Virus record (IMG/VR): IMGVR_UViG_3300046328_000321
Location: 1 to 64,000 of that record
Length of the DNA: 64,000 nt
Strand: one strand, 5' to 3'
From: a virus
Each line of letters starts with the position of its first letter. The stretch's first letter is position 1. The notes under the pieces were generated by a model. That model did no database searches, was not told the origin of the DNA, and saw only the letters and a list, made by a program, of their open reading frames with translations. This document shows, piece after piece, positions 191-63,889 of this stretch. A program made the position numbers and the translations under genes.

Positions 191-230
191 ATATATACAC
201 AGCCTGATAAGCTGTGTATATTTTTTTTTT
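191..230 (+). terminator. Intrinsic terminator shared by repeat-protein cassettes
   Basis: tatacacagc-ctgataa-gctgtgtata followed by a T-run; near-identical at ~22570, ~32782, ~33348, ~46800. Confidence 0.85.
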
Positions 231-331
231 CCTGTTTGTAAACTATTTTAGTCACATATATTCTATTTGAGCTATCGCTGTAGTTTAATTCACATCTCTG
301 TGAAACTATCAGCCAAGGAGATAGACATGAC
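231..331 (+). promoter_or_regulatory. Repeated promoter + leader hairpin + RBS module (type B)
   Basis: tgtaaactat..gtcacatatattctatttgag...tatcagccaaggagatagacATGAC; second copy at 32819-32920. Confidence 0.7.
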
Positions 332-9943: not shown

Positions 9944-9985
9944 TTTTTGGTAATCCTTATTAGGCTGATTAATTTCATAGGATCA

Positions 9986-12492
9986 ATGATGCCATCTTCT
10001 TCTCTACCCTTTAATTTAGATCTGCTAAACCTCACAGATATAGATATCAGAAGTCTACGACCTGTAAAAGTATTGGATATCACTGATGGTCTTAGTAAAA
10101 ACTTTCACCCTGATGGATTGTTCAGCACAGAAACATTTGGGATGATTGGTGAAGAGAAAAGAAATCGGATGTTCTCTTTTATAGAATTACATATACAAAT
10201 TCTTCACCCTATTGTTTTTAAAGCTGTGTATGATCTAAAAAGTCTATATGGTGACATCATGTCATCCAAAGGGTATGCTATTTTCGATCCTCAACTTAAG
10301 GACTTTGTTAAATCAGATCCTGTTGAAGGTAAAACAGGTTTTGATTTCTTTATTAAACATTTCAAAGAAATCAAATTTGAAGAAAGACCTTCTCCCAGAC
10401 GAGAGTTTAACATCAAGTTGGTGAATAAATATAGAGAAAAGGCACTGATCGATAAATTTGTAGTTATGCCTGCTGGGTTAAGAGACTACACTTTAGATGA
10501 GAATAACCAACCCAGCGAAGATGAAATCAATACTTTATATAGGAAGGTATTATCTTTAGCCGGTGTGATCGGTACAGTGGACTCTAAACTAAATGCTGAA
10601 TATTTTAACAATATGAGGTTTCAGTTACAGATTGCTTGTAACGAGATTTTTGAATATATTAAGAACTTGCTTGAAGGTAAAAGTAAACTTGTTCTAGGTA
10701 AATGGGCTGGAAGAAAAACTTTTCACTCTACTAGAAATGTGATTACTTCTTACGTAAGTAAAAACAAGAAACTATTTGGTCCTAATCATGTCTCTACCAA
10801 CCAGACTGTAGTTGGTCTTTATCAGTTTCTTAGAGCCACGTTACCTCTGTCTATTAAGAATGTCAGAGATGGTTACATGACTAAAGTATTTTCAGGTCCC
10901 AATACACCTATGATGTTAACGGATAAAAAAACACTAAAGAAAGTCATAGTACCCATTGATGGTAAGGAATACGATAAGTGGATGACCAATGAAGGTTTAG
11001 AGAAAGTGTTTGCTACTTACGGTCAAGAAAACTTAAGACACGATCATGTTGAAATAGCTGGTCATTATGCAGGACTTATTTTTAAAGGTAAGGATAATAC
11101 ATATCGTTTTCTACAAGACATAGATGAGTTACCTGAAAGATACAATAAAGAAGATGTATCGCCCATCACAGTGACAGAACTCATTATGTTAAGTGTTTAT
11201 GAAGGTTCCAGTGAAATACCTTGTTTTGTTACTCGTTATCCTGTCACAGGTTACGGCAGTATCTATCCAAGTTATGTTTATTTGAAATCTACGGTAGAGA
11301 ATGAAATTAGAATTTTGTTAGATGATAATTGGGAACCAACAGAACAAACATGTGCAGAATTTCCTACACCAGGTAGTGGTTTTTTTAATTCTTTCTCTGT
11401 GAGTAGTTCTCATTTAGGAAGATTGGGAGCTGATAAGAAGCAGTTTTTGGATATTTAAATTTGCTCTTTTACCTATAATGCGGTTTAATTAACGTTATGG
11501 TGAAAAGCATGTTTAAAAGATTTTTCCACACAGTTTTTTTGATTTACAACATTAACTGATGTGGAAAAAGCTTGAGATTGGTAATCTCATAAACAAAATT
11601 TGTTATGTCCTCTTAGGTAGTAATATCTAAAGAGTTTTTTCTTGAATTGCTAGAAAGCCTTTAGAGCTTTGTTAACCACTGCGAGACGAAAGTCAAAGCC
11701 AAGGTTTGAAAATAACAGAGATTAGGTAATCAGCAGCTAAGACGCTAAAGTCAGTTGTGAAATTGATCATGCGTAAAGTTCAACGACTAACCCTTAAGCA
11801 AGGTGTAGGAGATAGTATCTCCGAAGTGGGAAACACCCTACTGTTCTACAGAGGGTGAAGATATAGTCTGCTCCTTTGGGAAAGCCAAAGGCGGGTGTCA
11901 AAGCACACCGGGTTACTTTATGATAGGCTTGATGCCGAACGACTGTAACTGGACAATAGGTTCGATAAACGTGAATACTGATTCACAACTGTCGCCTGTG
12001 GAGGAAATACCACAGTGATAACTTCTTGAATTGCTGGGAACTCTTGTTAGACTGTTGAACTAAAGCGGAGTGTGAAAACACATACGTCTATGTTTGAAAA
12101 TCAGCAGGTAGAGACAATCAGCAGCTAAGCTCCTTTAAACTGGAGAAAGTTCAACGACCATCTCAGAAATGAGAGTAGGATCTAGTAGGTCCGAAGTGGG
12201 AAGCATCTAAACAGGTAAAGCTGAAGATGGTGATATGGTCTGTTCCTGTATGAGAATACAGGCGGGTGTCGAAGCATACCGGGTGTAAAGGGTAGGCTAT
12301 TATAGCTGAGCGGTTACATCGGACAACAAGGGTGACACGATGTCTTTGGTCTGTGTGATGAGTGAAGAATCCAAAGCAGAGATCAAAGACAAATTAAATT
12401 CTAGAAATTATTATATCGGAGTTAACAACAAGATGAATTTCAGTGGTAATGACGACATTTTGGATTTGACCTTGGCCAACATGACGAGTTAA
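9986..12492 (+). CDS. Virion RNA polymerase beta'-like catalytic subunit (phiKZ gp180-like); spliced exons 9986-11434, 11961-11966, 12331-12492 (~538 aa)
   Basis: DGLFSTETFG, TRYP motifs; joining the three exons restores LGAD-FD-GDTMSL, the DxDGD Mg-binding motif. Confidence 0.92.
11435..11960 (+). mobile_element. Group I intron 1 (no intact homing endonuclease)
   Basis: Upstream exon ends in T, intron ends in G; core motifs P gaattgctagaaa, Q aatcagcagc, R gttcaacgacta, S aagatatagtct; P7.1/P7.2 hairpins (IA-like). Confidence 0.9.
11961..11966 (+). other. 6-nt micro-exon TTCGAT (Phe-Asp of DFDGD)
   Basis: Lies exactly between the terminal G of intron 1 (ggacaatagG) and the start of intron 2; supplies the missing FD in frame. 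Confidence 0.88.
11967..12330 (+). mobile_element. Group I intron 2 (ORF-less)
   Basis: P gaattgctgggaa, Q aatcagcagc, R gttcaacgacca, S gatatggtct (P7 GACCA/TGGTC covaries with GACTA/TAGTC of the other introns); IGS GTCG pairs exon CGAT with a U.G wobble; ends ggacaacaaG before GGT GAC. Confidence 0.92.
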
Positions 12493-12496
12493 AAAT

Positions 12497-15400
12497 ATGC
12501 AAAAACTTTTTAGTCTTTTTTACAGAGAAGTAGGAGCTCGAAGAATACAAAACTTGGCCAGTCCTAAGTTGATAGACTTCAATAGCTTTCCTCGTAACTC
12601 TGTTTACCATTGTTTACAGCAGAATGACGCCAGAGATTTAGATGTATCTAAATTGTATTATAAAGGTTATAAGTCCAAGATCGCTGTGGACTATGTCATA
12701 GAAACCAATTATACAGAAGGCGGAGCTAAAAGAATTTCTTTTGTGCTCAAGAACGCTATTCGTATGTTTCATACTAAGAACAAACAATTTCAATACAGAC
12801 CAGATGCTATTTCCTTTGTAAAGGATAGTGGTGTATTGTTGGTGCAAAACTATAACTATCTGAATCAGTCTTATCGATACATGGACATGGCTTTAACGCC
12901 TTACTATATTTTTAAGAATCAATACAGCACGGTCTTGAAAACTATAGCTGATCAGATTAATAAATCTGATCGTCAGCATTTCATCTTCATAGATGTTCCC
13001 AGAGAAATACCTGCTGTTAGTTTTCTAGAACAATTTTCTAGAAATAAAGTCACAGCAGGTATGCTGTCTTTGTTCAACTCTGTGGAAAAGCTTTTAATTT
13101 TAGAACTCTATAAGTGGTTGGATAAAGAACATAGTGAAAATAGTATTTTTTCTATACTCAAAGACAAACAATTGGGCATGGTGAACTTGGTGTTCTTTAA
13201 TAAGAACGGAAAAGCTTCTGTGCTTAATTTAGGTTATATGTTCAGCTGGATCAAAGGTCATCAGAATATCATAGGCTTCACAGACACTGTACAACTTGAA
13301 GATACTCAATTACAGAGATTGTTTTTGAAGTTTCTTTTGGATATTAATACAGGCGACGATGCTGTAGAGATAGAAATACCTACCATAGATAGCATTGATC
13401 ATCCCAGAAACGAATCTGATTTGGATGAGTTTGAAGAATCTGAAACTAATTTTCCAGTCTCTGATGCTTTTATACATGGTGTCAGTAAAGATAAAAGTAA
13501 AGAAACTGTTTACAAAACTGCTGAGGTGTCTGACGATATAGACGATGGTTTAGAACAAACAGAAGATTTGGATATTATCTTAGCCAATATAGATCAGGAT
13601 TTAGAAGCCATAGATAAAGCACAGAAGACCAAACTCGCTAAAAAGGGTATGGTTATCACAGTCGATGGTAATCTGCAAGAGACTCATATTAAGAAAGAAG
13701 TTACAGAAGAAGAGGTAATGCTTGAGGTCTATGGAGATAAAACTTATCAAGAAAGTTTAAAAGCCTCTATAGATGCAGCTGCTGACACTGGTAGACTATC
13801 TGCTTCTGATTATAAGAAGTTGATTAAAGCTTCTCAAGAATTTGAAACGATGAGTAATCCTTACAATGGTAAAGAGTCTATCTCTGCCTCTAATAAGGTT
13901 ACAGTGGCTGATGTTACCATGAATGAAGAAGATAACATCATTATTGCGTCTGAATATCTTACAGACAAAACGATGAACCAATCTTCTTTACAAACTTTTG
14001 ATAAACAGTATATTAATACTGTTATGAAAAAAGACATGTTGATGTTGGTGTCTGGGTTACAAAAAGCTGGTGTACTTATTACCAATTATGAAATCCAAAG
14101 AGAAGTCAGTATCATGGGTAGTTATGATGTACACGAGGTGCAATTAAAACCTGTGGACGGTATGGCTTCAACCGTTAGATTCCGAGTACCTGTACCTGAT
14201 GAAAACGGAGTAATGAAAGTAGGTGGTAGCAGCTACAGTTATCGTAAACAGATTGTAGATTTACCTATACGCAAAATTGATCCTATCACGGTGGCTTTGT
14301 CGAGCTACTATGGTAAAACATTTGTGGCTGTTTCTGATAAAAAATCCAACAGTTCTTACGATTGGCTGTTGCGTAATATCTCTAAGATCAGCATCTCAGA
14401 CACACCGATTATTACAGACTTAGGTCCCGCTAATGTTTATAACAATCTGTTAAAAGCTCCGTATCTTTATAGTTTTTTATCTCAGAACTATAAAACGTTT
14501 AAGATTGAAGGTAATACGTTTATTTTTGATGAGCGTGAGCGTAACCTCATTATAGAAGATCATGCTAAGATCGAAAAAAACGGGAGTATCGTTTGTGGAT
14601 TTACAGCTAAACTTGAACCTATATTAATGTCAGAAACTGAAGAGTTTCTTATCTACAAAGCAGGTGGATATAACAACATCGGTCGTATCGAGGATATGTT
14701 AAAGTTAGACAAGACCAAAGCTCCTATAGACTTTACTGAACTTCGAGTCTTTGCCAAAACCATACCTGTAGGGGTTGTATTGGGTTACTATATTGGATTT
14801 GAGAAATTGTTAAAACTGACCAAAGCCAAGTATAGAATTATAGAAGGTCGCAAACAAAAAGATCTTCAGCAAGATGAGTATGCTCTGACCTTTGCAGATG
14901 TTTCGTATATTTTCACCAGAAATCAAAAAGTCACCAGTTTGATCATGTCTGGATTCTTGGAATATGAAAAAACATTAAAACAATACCCTGTTGAGTTATA
15001 TAACGATAAAGATGTTTATTTCAACTTGTTTGATAGTAAATCATTGTCTTCTTTATATATTAAAGAATTAGACATTTACAGGCAATTATTTATTGACGGT
15101 ATTACAAAGACCATCTTGGAACAGATGAACATGCCTGTGACATTCGAAGGATTGTTGGTAAAGTCAACTGAAATGTTGATTAATTATCATCATCCTGATA
15201 CTCAAGACATGGAACATATGCGTGTTCGCGGATATGAACGTTTGGCTGGTATAGTCTACAGTGAACTTTCGACAGCCATACGTCAGTTCAGAACCAAGAA
15301 TATATCCGGTAGAGCCAAGATTGACATGTCTCCGTTTGCCGTATGGTCGACGATCATGAAAGATCCAGCCATCAAGTTAGTAGAGGATATCAATCCTATA

Positions 15401-17369
15401 CAAAATATGAAAGAATCTGAGATCGTTACCTACGTAGGTGAAGGTGGTCGCGGTAAGGAATCTATGAACAAAGCCACCAGAGCTTATCATAGAAGTAACG
15501 TGGGTGTGGTATCTGAAGCTTCTGTAGATAGTGGGGATGTAGGTATTAACTTCTATCTCTCAGCCAATCCTAATTTTAAAGACATGCGTGGAGTCATCAA
15601 AACTGATAAAATAATGACTCCTTCATCCATGGTAACGACAGCTACTATGCTTGCACCAGGTAGCAGTAACGATGATTAACTGTATATAGTGAAAACTGTA
15701 TACGCTAGCTGTAATACGTTAAATTTTAAAACAGTCGAAAGATTCTTTCAATACAGAGTTTAGTCAGATAGTAAAGTGTTTTTCTCAGAAAAAATAAATC
15801 TGCTAAATATTACGGTAATGATAATAATGTTAAAGTAACAACTTTAAATTAGTGTCTTAATCAAAAAAAGTTAAAAGTTTCTTTTGCCAAACATAAATAT
15901 TCGTATTACAGTCAGCTAAGTCCTTTGAAAACGAAACTTTTCAAAGAATCTCTTTGAATTGCTAGAAAGCCTTTAGAGCTTTGTTAACCACTGCGAGACG
16001 AAAGTCAAAGCCAAGGTTTGAAAATAACAGAGATTAGGTAACCAGCAGCGAAGCTCCTTTAAACTGGAGAACGTTCAACGACTAGAGCCTTATCAGCTCG
16101 TAAAACCCCAAGCGGGGAAGAAGCGGAGAGCACCTTACTTTAACAGAAGGTGAAGATATAGTCTGTTCCTTTGGGAAAACCAAAGGTGGGTGTCGTTGCA
16201 CACCAGGTGTAAAAGGTAAGCTATATAGCTGAGCGCTTACATTGGACAATAAGGGTAAGAGAGTAAATTTTGTGCAAATTCAAATGTCTCATTTGATCGC
16301 CTGTAGGGATTATCATCAACCCATGGTAAGAACTGGTTATGAATATATCGTCTCGGGTAGAACAAGTGAACTCTTTGCTTGTAATGCCGATCAGGACGGT
16401 AAAGTATTGTCTGTGGATGATCGTGGTATCATTGTGCAATTTAAAGATGGTACTCAAAAGGGCATTCAACTGGGTCGCATTTACGGCAAGGCTGAAGGTA
16501 GTGTCTATCCCCATGATGTAAAAACACATTTATCACCAGGTGTTAAGTTCGTCAAAGGTGATAACTTGGCTTATAATTCTGGATTTTTTGAACAAGATAT
16601 ACTTGATCCCAAGCGTGTCGTGATGAAGAATTCCATGGTTATTAAAGTAGCTTTATCAGAAACTGCTCAAACACATGAGGACAGTTCTTCTGTTTCCCAT
16701 CGTGTATCAGGTATGGCTACTGCTAATACTACGAAAATGAAATCTGTCACAGTTTCTTTTAAACAGAATGTTCATAACGTAGTTCCATTTGGTAAAGAAA
16801 TTAAGCCTAATGACATCTTGATGGTATTGGAAGATGAAATCACTTCTACCGGACAATTTGATGAGGCGTCTTTATCGGTTCTAGCCGATTTATCAAAACA
16901 GACTATCAAGTCTAAATATGACGGTGTACTGGATAGAATTGAAGTTTATTACCACGGATCTAAAGAGGATATGAGTCCTTCTTTAAGAGCTTTAACTGAT
17001 AAAAGCGATAAGTTGATTTCATCTATTTGTAAGTCTACAGGGACTCCTGTTATTACAGGGGAGGTGAATGACGAGTATCGTGTTAGCGGTAGTAGACTCG
17101 GACTAGATAAGGCAGAAATCAAACTTTATATCACCATCGCTACTGATGTTGGTGTGGGTGATAAACTTGTGTTCGCTAATCAAATGAAGAGTGTGGTTGG
17201 TGAGGTTATGGATTATGATGTCCATACTGAAAGTGGTGAGCGTATAGATGCTATCTTTGGATTCAGGTCCATCATGGCTCGTGTCGTTAACTCTCCTTTT
17301 ATCATAGGTACCACTACTACGTTGTTAAGAAAAGTTGCTGAAAAAGCTGTCAAAGTTTATAAAGGTTAA
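12497..17369 (+). CDS. Virion RNA polymerase beta-like subunit (phiKZ gp178-like); spliced exons 12497-15676 and 16254-17369 (~1431 aa)
   Basis: Splicing gives SSNDD-GKRVNFVQIQMSH (equivalent to RpoB HDDANRALMGSNMQRQ); HEDS and GDKLVFANQMKSV RpoB-type motifs. Confidence 0.9.
15677..16253 (+). mobile_element. Group I intron 3
   Basis: Exon ends GAT, intron ends ggacaataaG; P gaattgctagaaa, Q aaccagcagc, R gttcaacgacta, S aagatatagtct. Confidence 0.92.
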
Positions 17370-20670: not shown

Positions 20671-20852
20671 ACCATATACGACTTCCTTCAGTGGAAGTCG
20701 TATATGGTGTGTATTTTTTACAATAGATGTAATTTATTATGGCTGAATATACACCAGCCTTTGTAAAAGCGTATAATCACTCATACTTTATCTGACTAAA
20801 TATAGTCAACTTTTGCAAAAGTCGTCTTTCAATTTAAACTTAAGGAACCATA

Positions 20853-21411: not shown

Positions 21412-22557
21412 ATGCCAACACACGGTAGAACATTTAATAGTCGGTTATTTGTTAACCAACAAAAAGATCAAAAAGTTGTTACCGACAAACAAAAAGCTTA
21501 TAAGTCAGAATATTGTTTACAAGAAATGTCAAAAGAACAGTTAATTACATTGATTAATATGCAAAAACAAGAACCCATTTCTGTAAAAATGTTACATAAT
21601 AATAGCTGTTTAAATGGATTTGATAACCTCAATAAAGTAGGATCTTTTATCAATATCCTAGGAATGGGATATTACCAAGGTTCTAAATCTAAACCTAATG
21701 TGTCTGTTATTTACCCGTATGTAAATGTAACTTCTGATTATTCTGTAAAGGAGAGTTTTTTCCCCAAGATATCTTTTTCAGATTCATTTGAACAACAATC
21801 TAATAAAATTGAATTTTCGTTACTTCAAGCTGAACGCAAAATTAACGAATTGCAACTTCTAATAGATGTGATGATCAATGAATTTAAACAGTATAAAACA
21901 ATAAATAACAAAAATTCCCATCTTGAAAATGTCCCTATTGTAAAATATGCAAGTGGTAATAAGCGTTGGTATCTGAACGGTAAGCTTCATCGTGAAGATG
22001 GACCTGCCATCGAAGATGCAGATGGTTATAAAGGCTGGTACCTAAACGACCAGCTTCATCGTACAGACGGACCTGCTGTTGAGCATATAAATGGTGATAA
22101 AGTCTGGTATGTCGATGATAAACTTCATCGCACAGATGGACCTGCTATCGAACGTGCAGATGGTACTAAAGAATGGTGGGTCAACGGCAAACGACACCGG
22201 ATCGATGGTCCTGCTGTCGAAGATGTGCATGGTTATAAAGCATGGTATCTGAACGGTAAGTATCACCGTGAAGATGGACCTGCTATAGAATGGGTAGATG
22301 GTAGTAAAGCCTGGTGGGTTGATGGTAAGCTCCATCGTACAGATGGACCTGCTATCGAATATGCACATGGTTATAAAGCCTGGTATCTGGATGGTCGATA
22401 CCATCGCACAGATGGACCTGCTGTGGAAGATGTGAACGGTTATAAAGCCTGGTATCTGGATGGTCAGCTCCATCATACTGATGGTCCCGCTATTGAACGT
22501 GCGAATGGTGGTAAAGAATACTGGCTCCATGGTGTTGAACAGGATCCACCTGGTTAA
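21412..22557 (+). CDS. Fusion of an unrelated N-terminal domain with ~9 HRxDGPAxE repeats (copy 2)
   Basis: Repeats from ~21940 ending EQDPPG*; shared terminator follows. Confidence 0.85.
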   Translation: MPTHGRTFNSRLFVNQQKDQKVVTDKQKAYKSEYCLQEMSKEQLITLINMQKQEPISVKMLHNNSCLNGFDNLNKVGSFINILGMGYYQGSKSKPNVSVIYPYVNVTSDYSVKESFFPKISFSDSFEQQSNKIEFSLLQAERKINELQLLIDVMINEFKQYKTINNKNSHLENVPIVKYASGNKRWYLNGKLHREDGPAIEDADGYKGWYLNDQLHRTDGPAVEHINGDKVWYVDDKLHRTDGPAIERADGTKEWWVNGKRHRIDGPAVEDVHGYKAWYLNGKYHREDGPAIEWVDGSKAWWVDGKLHRTDGPAIEYAHGYKAWYLDGRYHRTDGPAVEDVNGYKAWYLDGQLHHTDGPAIERANGGKEYWLHGVEQDPPG

Positions 22558-22671
22558 CTGATATAAATATATACACAGCCTGATAAGCTGTGTATATATT
22601 TTTTTTTTCTATTGTAATTCACTCTCCTCTAGACCTTTGGGTCTAGAGGAGAGTGGTCCTAACTGAATGTG

Positions 22672-32100: not shown

Positions 32101-32229
32101 ACATAAACATTCCCTTTATAACATATTTCAGCTATACATACTTTAACTGAGCTATTACAGTTTAAACTGATGTATCTGTCAGTACTGTTAATTAAAGGAG
32201 ATAAAGATGACTATCGTTACTAATGAAAA
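32094..32229 (+). repeat. Repeated promoter + leader hairpin + RBS + start module (type A)
   Basis: tatatgaacataaacattcc...ttacagtttaaactgatgtatctgtcagtactgttaattaaaggagataaagATGACTATCGTTACTAATGAA; copies at ~33383-33500 and ~46052-46185. Confidence 0.85.
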
Positions 32230-32770
32230 CGGTATCTTTTACTATAATGAAAAGGGTGAATATCACCGTGAGGATGGACCTGCTGTTGAATATCGAAATG
32301 GTGATAAAGAATGGTATCTGAATGATAAGCTTCACCGGATCGATGGTCCTGCTGTTGAATATGCGAATGGTGATAAAGTATGGTTCGTTAACGGTAAACG
32401 GCACCGGACCAATGGTCCTGCTGTGGAATATAGCAATGGTGATAAAATATGGTATGTCGATGGTCAGCGCCATCGTGTGGATGGTCCTGCTTTTGAAACA
32501 TTAGGTGGTTATAAAGCCTGGTATCTGAATGATAAGGTCCATCGTCTCGACGGTCCTGCTGTCGAAGATGTGAACGGTTATAAAGCCTGGTATGTCAATG
32601 ATCAATACCATCGCACAGATGGACCTGCTGTGGAAGATGTGAACGGTTACGGTTATAAAGCCTGGTATCTGCATGGTCAACGCCATCGTGTGGATGGTCC
32701 CGCTATTGAGCGGGCGGATGGTACTAAAGAATACTGGGTTAACGATATTCAACAGGATCCACCTGTTTAA
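32207..32770 (+). CDS. HRxDGPAxE repeat protein (copy 3)
   Basis: Tandem 22-aa repeats, QDPPV cap, AAGGAG RBS. Confidence 0.9.
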   Translation: MTIVTNENGIFYYNEKGEYHREDGPAVEYRNGDKEWYLNDKLHRIDGPAVEYANGDKVWFVNGKRHRTNGPAVEYSNGDKIWYVDGQRHRVDGPAFETLGGYKAWYLNDKVHRLDGPAVEDVNGYKAWYVNDQYHRTDGPAVEDVNGYGYKAWYLHGQRHRVDGPAIERADGTKEYWVNDIQQDPPV

Positions 32771-32915
32771 CTGATATAAATATACACACAGCTTATTAGA
32801 CTGTGTGTATTTTTTTGTTCCTGTTTGTAAACTATCTCAATCACTTATACTTTATTTGAACTATCGCTGTAGTTTAATCCATACATCTTTGGAACTATCA
32901 GCCAAGGAGATAGAC

Positions 32916-33335
32916 ATGACTGTGATTAAAAACCAGTATGGTACTTTTTATAGGAATGACGCAGATCAACTCCATCGTACCGATGGACCTGCTATCGAAT
33001 ACGCGAATGGTGATAAGCGTTGGCATCTGCACGGTCAGCTTCATCGTGAAGATGGACCTGCTGTGGAATATGTAGATGGTAGTAAATCATGGTTCGTTAA
33101 CGGTAAACGGCACCGGACCAATGGTCCTGCTGTGGAATCTGCAGATGGTTATAAAGCCTGGTTCGTCAATGGTCGACGACATCGTACTGACGGTCCTGCT
33201 GTGGAATGGGGAGATGGTAGTAAGTCATGGTGGGTCGACGATAAGCTCCATCGTGAAGATGGTCCTGCTGTGGAATATCCAGATGGTACTAAAGAATACT
33301 GGGTTAACGGTGTTAAACAAGATCCACCTGTTTAA
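32916..33335 (+). CDS. HRxDGPAxE repeat protein (copy 4)
   Basis: ATG at 32916 after AAGGAG in the type B module; repeats; QDPPV cap. Confidence 0.9.
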   Translation: MTVIKNQYGTFYRNDADQLHRTDGPAIEYANGDKRWHLHGQLHREDGPAVEYVDGSKSWFVNGKRHRTNGPAVESADGYKAWFVNGRRHRTDGPAVEWGDGSKSWWVDDKLHREDGPAVEYPDGTKEYWVNGVKQDPPV

Positions 33336-33477
33336 CTGATATAGATATATACACAGCCTGATAAGCTGTGTATATTTTTTTACCTTTTATAACATATTTC
33401 AGCTATACATACTTTAACTGGGTTATTACAGTTTAAACTGATGTATCTGTCAGTACTGTTAATTAAAGGAGATAAAG

Positions 33478-33984
33478 ATGACTATCGTTACTAATGAAAA
33501 GGGTGAACTTCATCGTGAAGATGGTCCTGCTGTAGAATATGCACATGGTTATAAAGTCTGGTATCTAAATGGTAAGTTCCATCGTGAAGATGGTCCCGCC
33601 ATCGAATATGCGAATGGTGATAAGCGTTGGTACATTGAAGATAAGCTCCATCGTGAAGATGGTCCTGCTGTAGAAGGTGCAGATGGTTATAAAGCATGGT
33701 GGGTCAATGGTCAACGACACAGGATGGACGGACCCGCTATCGAATATCCAGATGGTAGTAAAACTTGGTATCTGAACGATAAGGTCCATCGTACAGATGG
33801 TCCTGCTGTAGAAGGTGTAGATGGTACTAAAGAATGGTGGATCGATGATCAACTCCATCGTGAAGATGGTCCCGCCATCGAATATCCAGATGGTACTAAA
33901 GAATACTGGCTCCATGGTTATAAAGCCTGGTTTCTGAAAATATTAAACAAAATATTAACCAGGTATTCTTGTTTTAAATTTTAA
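33478..33984 (+). CDS. HRxDGPAxE repeat protein (copy 5, aberrant C-terminus)
   Basis: Repeats; lacks the QDPP cap and the shared terminator. Confidence 0.85.
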   Translation: MTIVTNEKGELHREDGPAVEYAHGYKVWYLNGKFHREDGPAIEYANGDKRWYIEDKLHREDGPAVEGADGYKAWWVNGQRHRMDGPAIEYPDGSKTWYLNDKVHRTDGPAVEGVDGTKEWWIDDQLHREDGPAIEYPDGTKEYWLHGYKAWFLKILNKILTRYSCFKF

Positions 33985-46058: not shown

Positions 46059-46163
46059 ACATAAACATTCCTTTTATAACATATTTCAACCACTTATACT
46101 TTATTTGGGTTATTACAGTTTAAACTGATGTATCTGTCAGTACTGTTAATTAAGGAGATGAAG

Positions 46164-46790
46164 ATGACTATCGTTACTAATGAAGAATGTACCTTTCATT
46201 ATAATGAAAAGAATGAGCTCCATCGTGAAGATGGACCTGCCATCGAAGATACAGATGGTTATAAAGCATGGTGGGTTAACGGTAAACGACACCGGACCAA
46301 TGGACCTGCTATCGAAGGTGCGGATGGTAGTAAGTCATGGTGGGTTAATGATCAACGCCATCGTACAGATGGACCTGCTGTGGAATATGTAAATGGTGAT
46401 AAACTATGGTTTGTTAATGATCAGCGCCATCGTGTGGATGGTCCCGCTGTCGAATATAACAATGGTTATAAAGCCTGGTATGTCGATGGTCAGCGTCATC
46501 GTGTGGATGGTCCCGCTGTCGAAGAAGCAGATGGTGGTAAAGTATGGTATCTGTATGGTCAACGACATCGTGAAGATGAACCTGCTGCAGAAGGTGCCAA
46601 TGGTAGTAAGTCATGGTGGGTTAACGGTCAACGACACCGGATCGACGGTCCTGCTGTAGAGCGAATAGACGGCCATAAAGAATGGTTCGTTAACGGTGAA
46701 CCCCATCGTGTAGATGGTCCCGCCATCGAATACCCAGATGGTACTAAAGAATACTGGCTCCATGGTGTTAAACAGGATCCACCTGTTTAA
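46164..46790 (+). CDS. HRxDGPAxE repeat protein (copy 6)
   Basis: Type A module, repeats, QDPPV cap, shared terminator. Confidence 0.9.
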   Translation: MTIVTNEECTFHYNEKNELHREDGPAIEDTDGYKAWWVNGKRHRTNGPAIEGADGSKSWWVNDQRHRTDGPAVEYVNGDKLWFVNDQRHRVDGPAVEYNNGYKAWYVDGQRHRVDGPAVEEADGGKVWYLYGQRHREDEPAAEGANGSKSWWVNGQRHRIDGPAVERIDGHKEWFVNGEPHRVDGPAIEYPDGTKEYWLHGVKQDPPV

Positions 46791-46928
46791 CTGATAGATA
46801 TATACACAGCCTGATAAGCTGTGTATATATTTTTTTTACCTTTTGTAAACTATTTCAGTCACATATATTCTATTTGAGCTGTGGTTTAACTTAACATTTA
46901 GTTGAGACTATTAGTTCAAGGAGTTATC

Positions 46929-48800: not shown

Positions 48801-48976
48801 TCATAATAATTTAAATTTAACATAGATAGAGCCATATGGCTCTATCTATGTTTATTATGTTTGTAAATTATTTCAGTCACATATACTTCACTTGAGCTAT
48901 ACTCTAGTTCAATCGAGATTAACTCGATAGCCTATAGACAGTTGGGTTTTATTTACTGTCATTGAGGAGACGAGAC

Positions 48977-49228: not shown

Positions 49229-49350
49229 CCTGAATAAAATCCCCTAAGTCAAAAGCTTAGGGGATTTTTTTTTTCAACACCTTGCTATAATTTTTTGGTC
49301 ATATAAATTTTACTTGACTTATTGTGCCATCTCACCTAAAGGAAAGTATC

Positions 49351-50488: not shown

Positions 50489-50993
50489 CAGAGATACACC
50501 TGAGTTCTACCTGAATAGAATGCGTAAAATAGCAACCCTTCTAGAGTTGCGAGGTTATGTGTTGCGATCAGGTGGGGCAGATGGAGCAGACTCTGCTTTC
50601 TACGAAGGTCTGTCAGACAAAGCCAACGCTGAGATATATTTGCCATGGGATGGTTATAATGGTCATTCCCATAAAGCATGTATCCCAGCGGAAGCTTACA
50701 GATTGGTGGAAAATCTGGTGCCAGACTTTCAATACAGATCACAAGCTGTACAACATCTGTTTGCCGGAAATGCGCAACAGATATTGGGTAAAGATCTGGA
50801 TTCACCTTCTGAATTTGTGATCTGTTATACCAGAGATGGTTATACAGGTCCTCACGACAGGAGCTTCAGGACAGGTGGTACCAAGATAGCCATAGACTTA
50901 GCAGTCAGTATAGGTATACCTGTGTTTAATATAAAAAGGATAGATCATCATAATACAGTGGTGAACTACTTCAACGATGATCACCTCCTTTAA
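50448..50993 (+). CDS. SLOG/DprA-like Rossmann-fold nucleotide-binding protein
   Basis: YAGIGNRDTP, LRSGGADGAD, YLPW and GGT motifs. Confidence 0.75.
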   Translation: MLSTSLRVYAGIGNRDTPEFYLNRMRKIATLLELRGYVLRSGGADGADSAFYEGLSDKANAEIYLPWDGYNGHSHKACIPAEAYRLVENLVPDFQYRSQAVQHLFAGNAQQILGKDLDSPSEFVICYTRDGYTGPHDRSFRTGGTKIAIDLAVSIGIPVFNIKRIDHHNTVVNYFNDDHLL

Positions 50994-51084
50994 ATCCCCT
51001 TTGTAAAAATACATAGTCATATATACTATACTTGACAATTGGGTCAATTTTTAATTGATACGGTTATTAAATGAGTGAAAACTT

Positions 51085-51157
51085 AGTCGTAATTCTCTGA
51101 TGAGTTCTGCGACTTTAAATAAAAGAACGAAACACCGTCCACAAGACGGTGTAAGAA
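51085..51157 (+). ncRNA. Type I hammerhead ribozyme with loop II pseudoknot; predicted cleavage after 51153
   Basis: UUCU-CUGAUGA-GUUCU[GCGACUUUAAAUAAA]AGAAC-GAAA-CACCGUC[CACAA]GACGGUG-UA^AGAA; loop II GCGACU pairs with upstream AGUCGU (51085-51090). Confidence 0.9.
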
Positions 51158-51482
51158 ATGTGTTAGCTTACGGTGATTACACACCATAAATCTTATTGGC
51201 TTATGGTCTAGCTGATGTTCTAACCAAACGTCAAACCGTGTGTCTATAGTTAGTTTCGCGAAAGAATACCCTTGGTCGGGATCTTAGCGCCGCTTCTATA
51301 GAAAGTTGTAAACTCTGGACTTGATCGCTCTAGAGAGCAGCCTATCATCCATTCGTATCTAATATGAGTGGATTTTAGAGTGCTATAAGATCTTACCGAC
51401 TATCAATCTACAGAACAATGTCAGCAGTTTATTCTGCGAAAATGACTTTGGTTCTTGATTGATAGTCGGTATTTTTTTTTTT
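51154..51482 (+). ncRNA. Unknown structured ncRNA downstream of the hammerhead
   Basis: No ORF of 60 aa or more; four nested stem domains; ends in a 15-bp perfect stem (51394-51408/51457-51471) plus a T-run. Confidence 0.65.
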
Positions 51483-51541
51483 CTTTGGAAATATAAATAG
51501 TACCATACGGAGCATCTGCTCCGTATGGTACTTTATTATGT

Positions 51542-52126
51542 TTATGTATAAGTAAATGAAGTATCCTGACCTTCATGTAACTGGACTATTAACCCAGTAG
51601 CATCTGTACCAGCACTTACAACATCGATGGATATAATATCATCATCGTTTATAACAATACCGTTAGAAGGTAATGAATTGTTAAAATTTACAACAGCTGT
51701 TAGACTTGAGGTTTCATTAGCGTCAATAGACAGTAATGTACTTCCAGCTATATTAACACCATTCAAATTTACTTGTATGGTTACAAGTCCCATATTTGAA
51801 GGTATAAAAACACTGGCTCTTACATGTTTTAACAAGAAAGTTCGTGGAGATCTTAAATAAGCTACATTAACGCCTGCGGTTATAAACGTAGTAGTGTCTT
51901 TATACGCTAAAGCTAAAACTAGAGGATTAAAGATAGGTGAGTATTTTTTAACTGTGTCAGATCGAAGTCGTTCACTTGAAATATCAAGTAATGCTGTCGC
52001 ATTAACATCTGAGATATATGCATCTGTTTTATACTCATTACCGGTTTTAACATAGTAAAGAGTGGAAGCCTGTATGGCTGAAAGTAACGGTTTAGTCAAA
52101 ACCTTAGCTATACTAAGAATGTTCAT
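51542..52126 (-). CDS. Putative virion/tail-fibre-associated protein
   Basis: Beta-rich C-terminus (DDDIISIDVVSAGTDATGL); terminator at 51498-51533. Confidence 0.55.
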   Translation of the reverse strand: MNILSIAKVLTKPLLSAIQASTLYYVKTGNEYKTDAYISDVNATALLDISSERLRSDTVKKYSPIFNPLVLALAYKDTTTFITAGVNVAYLRSPRTFLLKHVRASVFIPSNMGLVTIQVNLNGVNIAGSTLLSIDANETSSLTAVVNFNNSLPSNGIVINDDDIISIDVVSAGTDATGLIVQLHEGQDTSFTYT

Positions 52127-55558: not shown

Positions 55559-56542
55559 TTAACCCAAAGAAGAGTATTCGAAAGCTTTGACTTCTACAAC
55601 AGATTGAGATCCCAGAACATAACCGATAGATGAAAATAACATATCGTTAGCAGTATTATTGGATACAAGTTGTCGTTCAATGACTTCTAAAACATTAGAT
55701 ATTGATTCAACATATGTTAAATTTGTTACAATACCATGTTCTGAATCTGATGTATAAGTGGATTCTATGGTTCGCGTAACAGTTTCTAAAACCTCATTTA
55801 TACCAGATGTGTATTTAATAGATGTATTTACAGTAGTATCATCAGTTATACCTAAATCAGGATCTGTTATAAAATTCAGAGAGGAATAACTTTTAGCAGA
55901 CGTTTGACTTGCTTCGTAATTAGTACGTGAATAAAATTTATAACTAACATCAGTTAACAATCCGTTTAGATATAGCAATACAGATGATGCATCATTATAG
56001 AAAGTTGTACTTATAATAACATCATTACCATTTAATAGTTGGGTTAGCAATACGTCAGAACCAACCACCTTAGAGTTTGTGACAAGCACAGCACGTTGTA
56101 TGTCATTCAATGCTGCGGAACCAGGCGGTCTAAATGATGGTATTAAATCACTGAACGCATCATCTATGTACAATCCAGATTGGTGTGGCCCGTCTCTATA
56201 CCCTAAATAAGTCTTTAAAATATCAGTAGGTACTGCGCTGACTAAAATCTGTCTAGACTTAACTATACTTGTACCACGATCTAAAGTAAATTTAAATACT
56301 TTATTGTCTCGAACAGCAGGTTGTTGAAATAACACAGTCTGTTGATTTTGCGGCTCCAACCAAATAACAGGAGTTCCAGTTAACTGTTCCCAAAGAAATG
56401 TATGATTTGTTAGATCTCCTATCAGCGTTGCATTTAATGTAATGATATCATCGCAAGAAACAGTCATGACTGCATCAAGCTGTATAGAAATGTTATCGAG
56501 AACGTTTCTAAATATATGACTTTGTGGATTGACAAATGGCAT
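55559..56542 (-). CDS. Virion structural protein with PKD/Ig-like domain
   Basis: FLWEQLTGTPV motif; likely start MPFVNP after GAGGG. Confidence 0.55.
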   Translation of the reverse strand: MPFVNPQSHIFRNVLDNISIQLDAVMTVSCDDIITLNATLIGDLTNHTFLWEQLTGTPVIWLEPQNQQTVLFQQPAVRDNKVFKFTLDRGTSIVKSRQILVSAVPTDILKTYLGYRDGPHQSGLYIDDAFSDLIPSFRPPGSAALNDIQRAVLVTNSKVVGSDVLLTQLLNGNDVIISTTFYNDASSVLLYLNGLLTDVSYKFYSRTNYEASQTSAKSYSSLNFITDPDLGITDDTTVNTSIKYTSGINEVLETVTRTIESTYTSDSEHGIVTNLTYVESISNVLEVIERQLVSNNTANDMLFSSIGYVLGSQSVVEVKAFEYSSLG

Positions 56543-56884
56543 AAATCCCTCTTTATTTACTATCAAGTAATCACAAGATGATCGTAAAATCAAGACTGCT
56601 TGACATTAATAGTTTAACAGAGAATGTCGGTACCGACTTCCTGTATTTTTTTTTTTCTGTCTTTTAGAGAATATATTAATACTACATACTTTATTTGAAC
56701 TAACTTTAAAAAGGGTTCAAATGGTTAAATGATTATCAGGTTCAAATCTTACAGCCTAAAATATCGAATCTCACCAATGTGTTTCAACGTTTTTCAAAAT
56801 GGTGGATACCCAAGATTTAAATATAAACATTTTAGACAATTTATTCAACACGCTGGAATGTTGAAAAACCATAAAGAAAGTAAC

Positions 56885-57999: not shown

Positions 58000-58156
58000 A
58001 TAACCTCTTTGAAAATAATGAGTATACTTTATACTCAAAAAATTTATCATAAATTAACTGTTTGTAAATTATTTTGACCACATGTATTTTAATTGAAGTT
58101 TGGTATTTCACCAAGCATTATTAACACATAGGCTAATAACCAACTGTGTTTAAATC

Positions 58157-63559: not shown

Positions 63560-63889
63560 GGCCCGCTGATGAAATTGGTAGACATAACGGAAAACCAGAA
63601 AGTTAGTCCGCCTTTACTAGTAATAGTAAAGTAAACTGTGGGTGAACTCAGGAGAATCTAAAGCGCAAGCCATGATAATCGTGAGCCAAGCTAGAAGTAC
63701 ACTTCTAGAAGGTGCAGAGACTACTGGAAAGGTAAAGTCCTTTTAATAACCAGCTAGAGCGCCCACTACCGTAATAGAATTTCTATCGGTAAAGAGATAG
63801 TCCATGTCCATTGGAAACTTTGGAACACATGCTTAAAATCCGTCGCTTCCGAAAGGAGCATTCCGGTTCGATTCCGGAGCGGGCCACCA
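63560..63889 (+). tRNA. trnL: tRNA-Leu(UAA), intron-containing (exons 63560-63591 and 63832-63889)
   Basis: Acceptor GGCCCGC/GCGGGCC, anticodon stem ACGGA/TCCGT with loop CTTAAAA, long variable arm, T-arm TCCGG-TTCGATT-CCGGA, A73 and encoded CCA. Confidence 0.88.
63592..63831 (+). mobile_element. Group I intron in tRNA-Leu
   Basis: P3 gtgggtg/cgcccac, P gaactcaggagaa, Q aatcgtgagc, R gtgcagagacta, S aagagatagtcc; terminal G at 63831. Confidence 0.85.

What the first reader, a model, noticed from the sequence alone, without database searches (positions are those of the whole stretch)
51154..51482. Unexplained ~320-nt four-domain ncRNA matured by the hammerhead (candidate new phage RNA system)
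Seen: no protein-length ORF, but dense nested pairing. D1: agaa..tgttagct/agctgatg-ttct with inner accataa/ttatggt. D2 is closed by accaa/ttggt. D3: ggatctta-gcgc/gtgc-ta-taagatct encloses actctgga/tttagagt, gctct/agagc and atccattcgtat/atatgagtggat. D4: a perfect 15-bp stem encloses agaac/gttct, gtca/tgac and gcag/ctgc, then a T-run. After cleavage the freed AGAA can re-pair with UUCU at 51218-51221, so the ribozyme strand doubles as the closing stem of the product. I do not recognise tmRNA, RNase P, SRP, 6S, group II or riboswitch signatures. Inference: a promoter-ribozyme-RNA-terminator unit producing a stable RNA, perhaps a decoy, antitoxin or scaffold against host defences.
Basis: partly seen in the sequence, partly recalled or inferred. 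Interest (0 to 1): 0.85.

Follow-up and report, generated by a model that had tools for sequence, protein, structure and literature searches.

The report
Hammerhead-trimmed folded RNA gene, jumbo phage
An uncultured freshwater giant phage of the phiKZ type carries a small gene that makes no protein but a roughly 240-base folded RNA, cut free at its front end by a self-cleaving hammerhead ribozyme. Two related phages keep the same unit, it matches no catalogued RNA family, and its job is unknown.

Summary
The feature is real. The window is a phiKZ-like (Chimalliviridae-type) jumbo phage from freshwater metagenomes. At 50998-51482 there is a complete non-coding unit:
- a copy of the phage's recurring promoter motif;
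- a type I, pseudoknotted hammerhead that cleaves after 51153;
- a folded RNA core of about 240 nt (51154 to about 51392);
- an 82-nt hairpin followed by a T-run, acting as terminator.

Two IMG/VR relatives (tail sheath 85% identical in one) keep promoter motif, hammerhead and core. The core is 69% identical, with invariant blocks of 11-15 nt. Compensatory changes occur in the ribozyme stems, its pseudoknot and several core helices.

The D3 outer stem, the D1 outer stem, gctct/agagc and the AGAA "re-pairing" idea are not conserved.

Nothing in Rfam 15 matches the core. No further homologue turned up in 26 related phage records, IMG/VR pattern scans or GTDB genomes. No RNA run was listed among the holders, so function is open. 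My best guess is a stable, trans-acting, early-made RNA whose 5'-OH end is set by the ribozyme.

This scan has already noted hammerhead-led orphan RNAs in other phages, so the kind is not new, but this family is. Interest is moderate.

The parts
50998..51038 (+). Copy of the phage's recurring promoter motif (TTTGTAAA-N9-TCAyATATAC-TtTAyTTGA). By analogy with other phages that encode their own RNA polymerases, this is probably the early promoter read by the virion RNA polymerase. Inferred start of transcription is near 51040.
   Evidence: Repeat families D4, D5 and D9. Alignment of 11 copies, all on the + strand. Pattern counts: 12 forward and 0 reverse in G001, 0 to 1 in controls. PMC7598289 describes such motifs, centred near -10, as the early promoters of these phages.
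51085..51153 (+). Type I hammerhead ribozyme.
- Pseudoknot 5' strand: 51085-51090
- Stem I 5' strand: 51093-51096
- CUGAUGA: 51097-51103
- Stem II: 51104-51108 with 51124-51128
- Loop II, holding the pseudoknot 3' strand: 51109-51114
- GAAA: 51129-51132
- Stem III: 51133-51139 with 51145-51151
- U16.1 and A17: 51152-51153
- Cleavage falls between 51153 and 51154.
   Evidence: Read directly from the sequence. Covariation against G001 and G002:
- Stem II: U-A becomes C-G.
- Pseudoknot: AGUCG/CGACU becomes AGCCUU/AAGGCU, with two double changes.
- Stem I: UUCU/AGAA becomes UCUAU/AUAGA.
- Stem III is 7 bp in the window and 5 bp in the relatives, with the same CACAA loop.
Rfam scores are below threshold.
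51154..51392 (+). Conserved folded RNA core of about 240 nt, carrying a 5'-OH after cleavage.
- H1: 51170-51174 with 51235-51239
- H2: 51183-51189 with 51201-51207
- H3: 51214-51219 with 51227-51232, invariant loop CUAACCA at 51220-51226
- Long hairpin H4/H5: 51243-51302, with CCC/GGG and the invariant loop UUGGUC at 51272-51277
- Invariant single strand AAGUUGUAAAC: 51303-51313
- H6: 51313-51319 with 51329-51335, loop with UUGAUC
- H7: 51336-51384, with a variable apical hairpin
   Evidence: BLAST match of 69% identity over about 290 nt in G001 and G002. Alignments A3, A4 and A6. RNAalifold found 11 pairs with compensatory change. Pair counts gave 5 double changes against 1.7 in shuffles and 0 to 1 in slid controls. 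The three sequences, folded independently, give the same architecture.
51395..51482 (+). Intrinsic terminator. A branched hairpin closed by a 15-bp stem (51395-51470) is followed by a run of 11 Ts (51472-51482). It is specific to this phage and is not part of the conserved RNA.
   Evidence: Minimum-free-energy fold. The relatives have no counterpart.
51499..51532 (.). Second, two-way terminator hairpin (15 bp) between the RNA unit and the convergent gene 51542-52126 (minus strand).
   Evidence: Terminator scan, found on both strands.

Best explanation
This is a stand-alone gene for a stable non-coding RNA of a phiKZ-like jumbo phage.

How it works, as I read it:
1. Transcription starts at a copy of the phage's own recurring promoter motif, inferred to be the early class read by the injected virion RNA polymerase.
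2. The first structured element made is a type I hammerhead, held in its active shape by a pseudoknot between loop II and the 5' flank.
3. The hammerhead cuts after the A at 51153. This discards the promoter-proximal leader together with almost the whole ribozyme. It leaves a ~240-nt RNA that begins with a 5'-OH at a fixed nucleotide.
4. In this phage the RNA ends at a long hairpin terminator.
5. The core folds into a multi-helix body: a 5' three-helix domain, a long hairpin and two 3' hairpins, joined by invariant single strands.
6. Two invariant hairpin loops (ACCA in CUAACCA, UGGU in UUGGUC) can pair with each other.

Shown here: the parts, their order, their conservation and the covariation.

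Inferred, not shown:
- that the ribozyme actually cleaves;
- the promoter class and the start site;
- that the point of the ribozyme is to uncouple the RNA's 5' end from the promoter's initial sequence, and to replace a triphosphate with a 5'-OH that is a poor entry point for 5'-end-dependent RNases;
- that the RNA acts in trans, most likely as a binding platform for a protein or another RNA early in infection. I put about 0.3 on that last functional guess.
For: PHAGE TYPE
- Split multisubunit RNA-polymerase beta genes, plus a tail sheath 46% identical to Burkholderia phage FLC9 and 43% to Ralstonia phage RP12.

A UNIT OF ITS OWN
- The promoter motif recurs 10 or more times on one strand in the window.
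- It lies directly upstream of the hammerhead both here and in G001, about 20 nt from the ribozyme there (with sequence).
- The terminator and the convergent downstream gene rule out a leader role here.

RIBOZYME
- All core nucleotides are present, and stems I and II and the pseudoknot covary.

RNA BODY
- 69% identity to relatives whose neighbouring DprA-like protein is only 58% identical.
- Invariant blocks of 11-15 nt.
- 5 of 38 tested pairs changed on both sides, against 1.7 in shuffles and 0 to 1 in slid controls.
- Hairpins H2 and the H7 apex are replaced by different sequences that still pair.
- No conserved ORF.
- One copy per genome record.
Against: - There are only three sequences from two lineages, and G001 and G002 are nearly identical. 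The covariation statistics are therefore thin, and the invariant loops and strands cannot be tested.
- The Rfam hammerhead models do not reach their thresholds. The window scores 13.9 bits on RF00008 against a cut-off of 48.5. The relatives score 16.1 bits on RF00163 against 34.
- In G001 and G002 no terminator follows the core. About 350 nt of further hairpins run up to the next ORF, so a leader role there is not excluded.
- The minus strand folds as well as the plus strand.
Confidence: 0.72

Rival explanations
1. A self-assembling or tRNA-end-related RNA. One form: the two invariant loops (ACCA and UGGU) pair between molecules, so the RNA forms dimers or rings, as phage-associated ROOL and GOLLD RNAs and phi29 pRNA do. 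Another form: the UGGU loop binds the NCCA 3' end of tRNAs while the ACCA loop mimics it, giving a tRNA-linked sensor or decoy.
For: - The two hairpin loops are invariant and complementary in all three sequences (duplex -4.2 kcal/mol).
- In the relatives the unit lies at the end of the tRNA gene island.
- ROOL and GOLLD use kissing loops to form RNA-only cages (PMC12286853).
Against: - The loops never vary, so nothing tests the contact or tells intra- from intermolecular pairing. Four base pairs arise easily by chance.
- The UUGGU segment has a second conserved partner option, G(U/C)CAA.
- In the window the unit is about 12 kb from the tRNA region.
- The RNA is far smaller than ROOL or GOLLD and matches no model of them.
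Confidence: 0.1
2. A cis-acting element. It would be a 3' UTR or processing signal of the upstream DprA-like gene, or a 5' leader with a ribozyme for the gene downstream, as seen with some hammerheads inside phage operons.
For: - The unit follows the DprA-like gene in all three phages: directly in the window, and after the tRNA island in the relatives.
- In G001 and G002 the next ORF (122 aa) lies about 350 nt downstream on the same strand, with no clear terminator between.
Against: - The unit has its own promoter motif in both lineages.
- In the window it ends at a strong terminator and the next gene is convergent.
- The 122-aa ORF of the relatives has no counterpart in the window's genome record.
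- The conserved part is the RNA body, not the junction with any gene.
Confidence: 0.1
3. A relic of a mobile RNA element. This genome is rich in group I introns and in HNH genes inserted into tRNA genes, so the stretch could be a decayed intron or a ribozyme-bearing selfish element with no present function.
For: - Four group I introns lie in the window, and one more lies in the tRNA region of G002.
- ORFs interrupt tRNA genes in the relatives next to the unit.
- Self-cleaving ribozymes are common in selfish elements (PMC3088659).
Against: - The group I model that scores the four introns at 62-86 bits finds nothing here even at E of 10 or less.
- There are no flanking exon halves, no repeats and no second copy.
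- Purifying selection is visible as invariant blocks together with compensated helices.
Confidence: 0.05
4. The hairpins are a chance product of an AT-rich spacer plus a terminator, and there is no functional RNA body.
For: - The core alone is only moderately more stable than shuffles in the window (z -3.4).
- The minus strand folds equally well.
Against: - The core is more conserved than the neighbouring protein gene and carries compensatory changes.
- The same architecture appears in three independent folds.
- A conserved ribozyme sits in front of it.
Confidence: 0.03

Closest known systems
Type I hammerhead ribozymes with a stem I/II pseudoknot in phage and prophage intergenic regions (Rfam RF00163, clan CL00010; Perreault et al. 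2011, PMC3088659)
   Same: - The core is the same: CUGAUGA, GAAA and a GUA cleavage triplet.
- Stems II and III are capped and stem I is open.
- A 5-6 bp pseudoknot takes the place of loop-loop contacts.
- The setting is a phage intergenic region.
   Different: - It scores below Rfam's cut-offs, with a 15-nt loop II and a long stem III.
- It sits directly behind a promoter, so it removes the very start of a primary transcript rather than separating genes or unit-length repeats.
Phage T4 small stable RNAs RNAC and RNAD of the tRNA gene cluster (function still unknown; PMC9697503)
   Same: These are also phage-encoded, non-tRNA folded RNAs of unknown function linked to a tRNA gene region. In the two relatives, the unit lies at the end of the tRNA island.
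   Different: - blastn found no similarity to any phage record.
- This RNA is about twice as long.
- It is matured by a ribozyme rather than by host tRNA-processing enzymes.
- It has its own promoter, and in the window it lies away from the tRNA genes.
GOLLD, ROOL and OLE 'ornate' RNAs (Rfam; cryo-EM in Kretsch et al. 2025, PMC12286853)
   Same: These are also orphan, highly structured RNAs, often carried by phages or prophages. Kissing loops are a major architectural device in them. The present RNA has two invariant complementary loops.
   Different: - Those RNAs are 500-800 nt or more, against about 240 nt here.
- No Rfam model matches.
- Oligomerisation is untested here.
- This family has a very narrow distribution: three records.
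Engineered hammerhead-guide RNA cassettes (promoter, then a 5' hammerhead, then the functional RNA). From general knowledge, not checked in a paper here.
   Same: The logic is the same. A 5' type I hammerhead frees an RNA from whatever the promoter forces at its start and gives a precise 5'-OH end.
   Different: This one is natural and phage-encoded. No 3' ribozyme is present, and a terminator sets the 3' end in the window.

Membership tests
Hammerhead ribozyme, type I (RF00163 / CL00010) | Conserved catalytic core: C3-U-G-A-U-G-A9, G12-A-A14, the A15.1-U16.1 pair, and H17 at the cleavage site | tested here: met
   CUGAUGA at 51097-51103, GAAA at 51129-51132, U at 51152 and A at 51153. All are invariant in G001 and G002.
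Hammerhead ribozyme, type I (RF00163 / CL00010) | Three helices around the core, with stems II and III capped and stem I open, kept by compensatory change | tested here: met
   Stem II changes U-A to C-G. Stem I changes UUCU/AGAA to UCUAU/AUAGA. Stem III is 7 bp against 5 bp, with the same loop.
Hammerhead ribozyme, type I (RF00163 / CL00010) | [quoted passage not shown] | tested here: met
   AGUCG(U) at 51085-51090 pairs with (G)CGACU at 51109-51114. In the relatives this becomes AGCCUU with AAGGCU, which is two double changes. PMC3088659 shows that such pseudoknots are needed for fast cleavage.
Hammerhead ribozyme, type I (RF00163 / CL00010) | Score at or above Rfam's gathering threshold | tested here: not met
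   In the window, RF00163 gives no hit, and RF00008 gives 13.9 bits against a cut-off of 48.5. G001 and G002 score 16.1 bits on RF00163 against 34. This is a limit of the models, given the large loop II, and is not a missing core feature.
Hammerhead ribozyme, type I (RF00163 / CL00010) | Self-cleavage that gives a 2',3'-cyclic phosphate and a 5'-OH | not testable with these tools
   This needs in vitro transcription, or RNA reads that map the ends.
Any Rfam 15 family, for the RNA body | A match of sequence and structure to a curated covariance model. This covers tmRNA, RNase P, 6S, SRP, T-box, riboswitches, group I and II introns, pRNA, GOLLD, ROOL, HEARO and the rest. | tested here: not met
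   No hit at gathering score across the window. Only noise at E of 10 or less on 50900-51600. Nothing on the relatives' copies at E of 1 or less.
GOLLD / ROOL type ornate RNAs | Large size (over 500 nt), with homo-oligomeric assembly through conserved intermolecular contacts | tested here: not met
   The core is about 240 nt, so the size criterion fails. Oligomerisation could not be tested with these tools. Only a complementary, invariant loop pair is seen.
T4 RNAC/RNAD-like small RNAs of phage tRNA clusters | Encoded inside the tRNA gene cluster and co-processed with the tRNAs | tested here: inconclusive
   In G001 and G002 the unit lies downstream of tRNA-Thr and tRNA-Leu on the same strand, but with its own promoter motif. 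In the window it is a separate unit about 12 kb from the tRNA region.
Cis-regulatory leader or riboswitch | Lies in the 5' UTR of the gene it controls, on the same strand | tested here: not met
   In the window the RNA ends at a terminator and the next gene is convergent.
6S-like promoter mimic | An RNA that imitates the open promoter bound by the polymerase | tested here: inconclusive
   There is only a 9-nt identity (TTGTAAACT) between the invariant single strand and the upstream block of the phage promoter motif. I estimate the chance of such a match at a few per cent. There is no 6S-like bubble and no Rfam 6S match.

The most novel reading that the evidence does not exclude
The RNA may be an early-infection effector of a nucleus-forming phage whose invariant ACCA and UGGU loops are its working parts. 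In one version they link copies of the RNA into a defined oligomer, a small relative in principle of the ROOL and GOLLD cages. In the other they engage the CCA ends of tRNAs or the proteins that bind them. That would tie the RNA to the tRNA island it accompanies in related phages, and to the tRNA-directed arms race between phages and hosts.
Probability: 0.1. Interest if true: 0.8.

Novelty: new variant of a known kind. Interest (0 to 1): 0.5.

Why it matters
Structured non-coding RNAs of jumbo phages are almost unexplored. For phiKZ itself, a dedicated transcriptome study predicted a single small RNA and could not confirm it (PMC8244752).

This locus is a compact and unusually legible example. 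It has a recognisable phage promoter, a ribozyme that sets the 5' end, a conserved body with a few invariant surfaces, and a terminator.

The layout shows that phages use the same trick as synthetic biologists: a 5' hammerhead that frees an RNA from what the promoter imposes on its start.

If the RNA proves to act early in infection of a nucleus-forming phage, it would add an RNA player to a takeover programme so far described only through proteins.

The limits are plain. The family is known from three uncultured genomes, no expression data exist, and the scan has already met several other hammerhead-led orphan RNAs in phages.

Tried and rejected
SEARCHES THAT FOUND NOTHING
- Rfam at gathering and at permissive thresholds, on the window and on the relatives, gave nothing for the body.
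- ARAGORN found no tRNA or tmRNA in the window.
- blastn of the window's copy and of the G001 copy against 50,697 phage records gave no match.
- Single-protein searches of IMG/VR with the two flanking proteins found nothing.
- The profile of the 194-aa protein also found nothing.

SEARCHES THAT WERE BLOCKED OR FELL SHORT
- The protein database holds closer relatives of both flanking proteins: P0001-P0005 at 57-72% identity and P0006-P0009 at 60-83%.
It returned only distant DprA-like loci plus G001 again.

PATTERN AND MODEL SCANS
- Four IUPAC patterns built from invariant blocks found only G001 and G002. The other matches were chance hits in coding or unrelated DNA. These were L098 and L143 in IMG/VR and 14 loci in GTDB genomes, none of which matches model R1.
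- Covariance model R1 gave no hit beyond G001 and G002 over 26 phage records, which include seven estimated 93-100% complete. A separate R1 search of Burkholderia phage FLC9 also gave none.
- Rfam RF00163 run over related phages gave two hits in Ralstonia phage RP12. Both lie in coding sequence and are chance matches.

SEQUENCING RUNS
- No RNA holder was listed among the sequencing runs.
- The four DNA runs laid on the stretch held only short, identical contig pieces. They gave no variants to test pairing.

IDEAS CONSIDERED AND DROPPED
- Promoter-mimic idea: the RNA shares only 9 nt with the promoter motif, so the evidence is weak. My first pattern for that motif used the wrong spacer and falsely gave zero hits. 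This was corrected.
- Antisense idea: the best complementarity to the phage's own genome is one 14-mer near 55996 on the minus strand. About 0.2 such matches are expected by chance, and the 5' half of that segment is not conserved.
- Circular RNA: there is only one ribozyme, and in the window a terminator sets the 3' end.

Full report
WHAT THE WINDOW IS

The window is the first 64 kb of a 113-kb IMG/VR virus record, estimated 43% complete. Three things mark it as a phiKZ-like, Chimalliviridae-type jumbo phage:
- It carries split multisubunit RNA-polymerase beta genes interrupted by group I introns.
- Its tail sheath is 46% identical to that of Burkholderia phage FLC9 and 43% to that of Ralstonia phage RP12.
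- It has other phiKZ-type virion proteins.

Near-identical DNA occurs in many freshwater metagenome runs. No RNA run was listed.

THE OBSERVATION

The stretch 51154-51482 has no ORF of 40 aa or more on the + strand. It folds much better than shuffled sequence, with z -7.5. Much of that signal comes from the 3' hairpin, because the conserved core alone gives z -3.4. The minus strand folds equally well, so folding energy does not assign the strand.

Immediately upstream lies a complete hammerhead:
- CUGAUGA at 51097-51103;
- stem II, 51104-51108 with 51124-51128;
- GAAA at 51129-51132;
- stem III, 51133-51139 with 51145-51151;
- U and A at 51152-51153;
- stem I, formed by 51093-51096 with 51154-57.

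Cleavage therefore falls between 51153 and 51154. With stems II and III capped and stem I open, this is a type I hammerhead. Almost the whole ribozyme leaves with the 5' fragment.

RELATIVES

blastn against 50,697 phage records found nothing. The flanking proteins have closer relatives in the large protein database.

A profile of the upstream DprA-like protein did retrieve two IMG/VR records. These are G001 (120 kb) and G002 (73 kb), whose DprA-like protein is 58% identical. The G001 tail sheath is 85% identical to the window's.

A DNA search of those whole records found the hammerhead plus about 250-290 nt of the RNA at 69% identity. In both records the unit lies on the same strand as the DprA-like gene, but 1.3-1.9 kb further on, after a tRNA island. 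That island holds tRNA-Thr, tRNA-Leu(UAA), inserted endonuclease ORFs, and in G002 a group I intron.

THE RIBOZYME IS GENUINE

Between the window and the relatives:
- Every core nucleotide is invariant.
- Stem II changes U-A to C-G.
- Stem I changes from UUCU/AGAA to UCUAU/AUAGA.
- Stem III shortens from 7 to 5 bp around an identical CACAA loop.
- The pseudoknot between the 5' flank and loop II changes from AGUCG/CGACU to AGCCUU/AAGGCU, which is two pairs changed on both sides.

Such pseudoknots are a known way to hold stems I and II parallel, and they are needed for fast cleavage (PMC3088659).

The Rfam models stay below threshold: 13.9 bits against 48.5 for RF00008 in the window, and 16.1 bits against 34 for RF00163 in the relatives. 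I attribute this to the 15-nt loop II and the long stem III, not to any missing feature.

A DEDICATED TRANSCRIPTION UNIT

The window holds a recurring motif of about 40 nt, TTTGTAAA-N9-TCAyATATAC-TtTAyTTGA, always on the + strand, in front of many genes. One copy lies at 50998-51038, right after the stop codon of the DprA-like gene.

The motif is shared by the relatives. G001 has 12 forward and 0 reverse copies, against 0 in the reversed-pattern controls. One G001 copy ends about 20 nt before its hammerhead, and G002 has the same arrangement with three mismatches.

In phages with their own multisubunit polymerases, a conserved AT-rich motif centred near -10 upstream of presumed early operons is the early promoter used by the virion polymerase (PMC7598289). 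I therefore infer that the RNA is an early transcript starting near 51040. In G001 the transcript would begin practically with the ribozyme.

A ribozyme placed at the very start of a primary transcript makes most sense as a device that removes the promoter-dictated first nucleotides and the 5' triphosphate. That is inference, not shown.

THE RNA BODY

The conserved part runs from 51154 to about 51392 (alignments A3 and A4). The three sequences, folded independently, give the same layout:
- H1 (51170-51174 with 51235-51239) encloses H2 and H3.
- H2 is 51183-51189 with 51201-51207.
- H3 is 51214-51219 with 51227-51232, with an invariant CUAACCA loop.
- A long irregular hairpin, H4/H5, spans 51243-51302 and is capped by CCC-UUGGUC-GGG.
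- An invariant single strand AAGUUGUAAAC follows.
- H6 is 51313-51319 with 51329-51335, with a loop containing UUGAUC.
- H7 spans 51336-51384. Its base is invariant (AGCAGCCUAU...UUUAGAGUGCU) and its apical hairpin is replaced entirely in the relatives, yet still pairs.
- A short helix joins the 5' and 3' ends of the core in each sequence, but in a different register.

RNAalifold found 11 pairs with compensatory change. On a conservative 38-pair structure, 94% of cells pair and 5 pairs changed on both sides. Shuffles gave 1.7 such pairs and slid controls gave 0 to 1. G001 and G002 also differ from each other by compensated changes inside H4 and by a paired extension of the H7 apex.

With three sequences from two lineages this is supportive evidence, not proof.

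WHAT DOES NOT HOLD

- The D1 outer stem competes with H3, which covaries.
- gctct/agagc has no counterpart in the relatives.
- ACUCUGGA/UUUAGAGU can form in all three sequences, but so can H6. H6 is more stable in the relatives (-9.7 against -4.7) and has one double change.
- The proposed re-pairing of the freed AGAA is a contact of 3-4 bp with no covariation.
- D4 (51395-51470 plus the T-run) is a window-specific intrinsic terminator. The relatives have other hairpins for about 350 nt up to the next ORF, with no clear terminator.
- accaa/ttggt involves two hairpin loops and is invariant. It is a candidate loop-loop contact, within one molecule or between molecules, and it cannot be tested with these data.

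DISTRIBUTION

The following found no further member:
- four block patterns scanned over IMG/VR and GTDB genomes;
- a 187-position covariance model run over 26 related or DprA-linked phage records and, in a separate search, cultured phage FLC9;
- a search of the window's own whole record.

Other pattern hits were chance matches in coding DNA. On present evidence the family is confined to a narrow clade of freshwater phiKZ-like phages, one copy per record. The unfetched Logan and JGI contigs probably hold more members.

WHAT IT IS NOT

- No Rfam 15 family matches, even at permissive thresholds. The group I model that scores the window's four introns at 62-86 bits is silent here.
- No ORF is conserved.
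- It is not a leader in the window, because of the terminator and the convergent downstream gene.
- Neighbouring genes give no functional hint: a thymidylate kinase and a DprA-like protein upstream, and unannotated, probably structural, proteins downstream.

MOST LIKELY MECHANISM AND STANDING

I read this as a stand-alone, probably early, phage RNA gene whose product is trimmed by its own hammerhead to a fixed 5'-OH end. The product folds into a compact multi-helix body that displays a handful of invariant loops and strands. Most likely these act in trans as a binding surface for a protein or another RNA.

The closest known things are:
- phage hammerheads with pseudoknots (PMC3088659);
- the still unexplained T4 RNAs RNAC and RNAD (PMC9697503);
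- in spirit, the ornate phage-associated RNAs ROOL and GOLLD (PMC12286853).

It is a member of none of the RNA-body families. Earlier agents of this scan reported other hammerhead-led or tRNA-island RNAs in phages, including nucleus-forming ones, on unrelated DNA. The kind therefore recurs, but this sequence family had no look-alike in the scan's index.

Noticed in passing
window 226-275, 20758-20796, 32104-32145, 32815-32864, 33377-33426, 46064-46113, 46833-46882, 48851-48900, 49273-49322, 50998-51036, 58052-58101: A strongly conserved ~40-nt motif, TTTGTAAA-N9-TCAyATATAC-TtTAyTTGA, recurs and is always on the + strand. G001, G002 and G006 share it (12, 5 and 8 copies, all on one strand). It is probably the early promoter read by the virion RNA polymerase in this phage clade.
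   Followed up: partly
window 51306-51314, compared with 236-244, 32825-32833 and 46843-46851: The RNA's invariant single strand contains TTGTAAACT, which is identical to the upstream block of the promoter motif. This could be chance (a few per cent by my estimate) or a hint of promoter mimicry.
   Followed up: partly
window 11590-11890, 11967-12262, 15897-16186, 63576-63824: Four group I introns score 62-86 bits. Three lie between or beside the RNA-polymerase beta-subunit ORFs (9947-11458, 12497-15679 and 16242-17369). One lies in the tRNA region.
   Followed up: no
L003 3597-4160 (G001); L004 3597-3671 and 3770-4270 (G002); L092 2459-2750: In the relatives the tRNA island after the DprA-like gene is riddled with insertions. 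In G001 a 170-aa ORF splits the tRNA-Thr gene, which is intact in G002. In G002 an ORF and a group I intron interrupt the neighbouring tRNA, which in G001 is an intact tRNA-Leu(UAA).
   Followed up: partly
L093 900-1455 and 1790-2140 (G001): About 550 nt of ORF-free sequence lies between tRNA-Leu and the promoter motif. About 350 nt of hairpin-rich, ORF-free sequence follows the conserved core; core and tail folded together (586 nt) give z -6.2. These could hold further non-coding RNAs that the window's phage lacks.
   Followed up: no
window 55996-56009 (minus-strand gene 55559-56593): A 14-nt perfect complementarity exists to the RNA segment 51297-51310 (UAUAGAAAGUUGUA). About 0.2 such matches are expected by chance, and the 5' half of the segment is not conserved in the relatives.
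   Followed up: partly
window 21914-22627, 32190-33943, 46147-46791: Several genes are built from 69-nt (23-aa) tandem repeats. They share leaders and terminators, and they are driven by the same promoter motif as the RNA unit.
   Followed up: no
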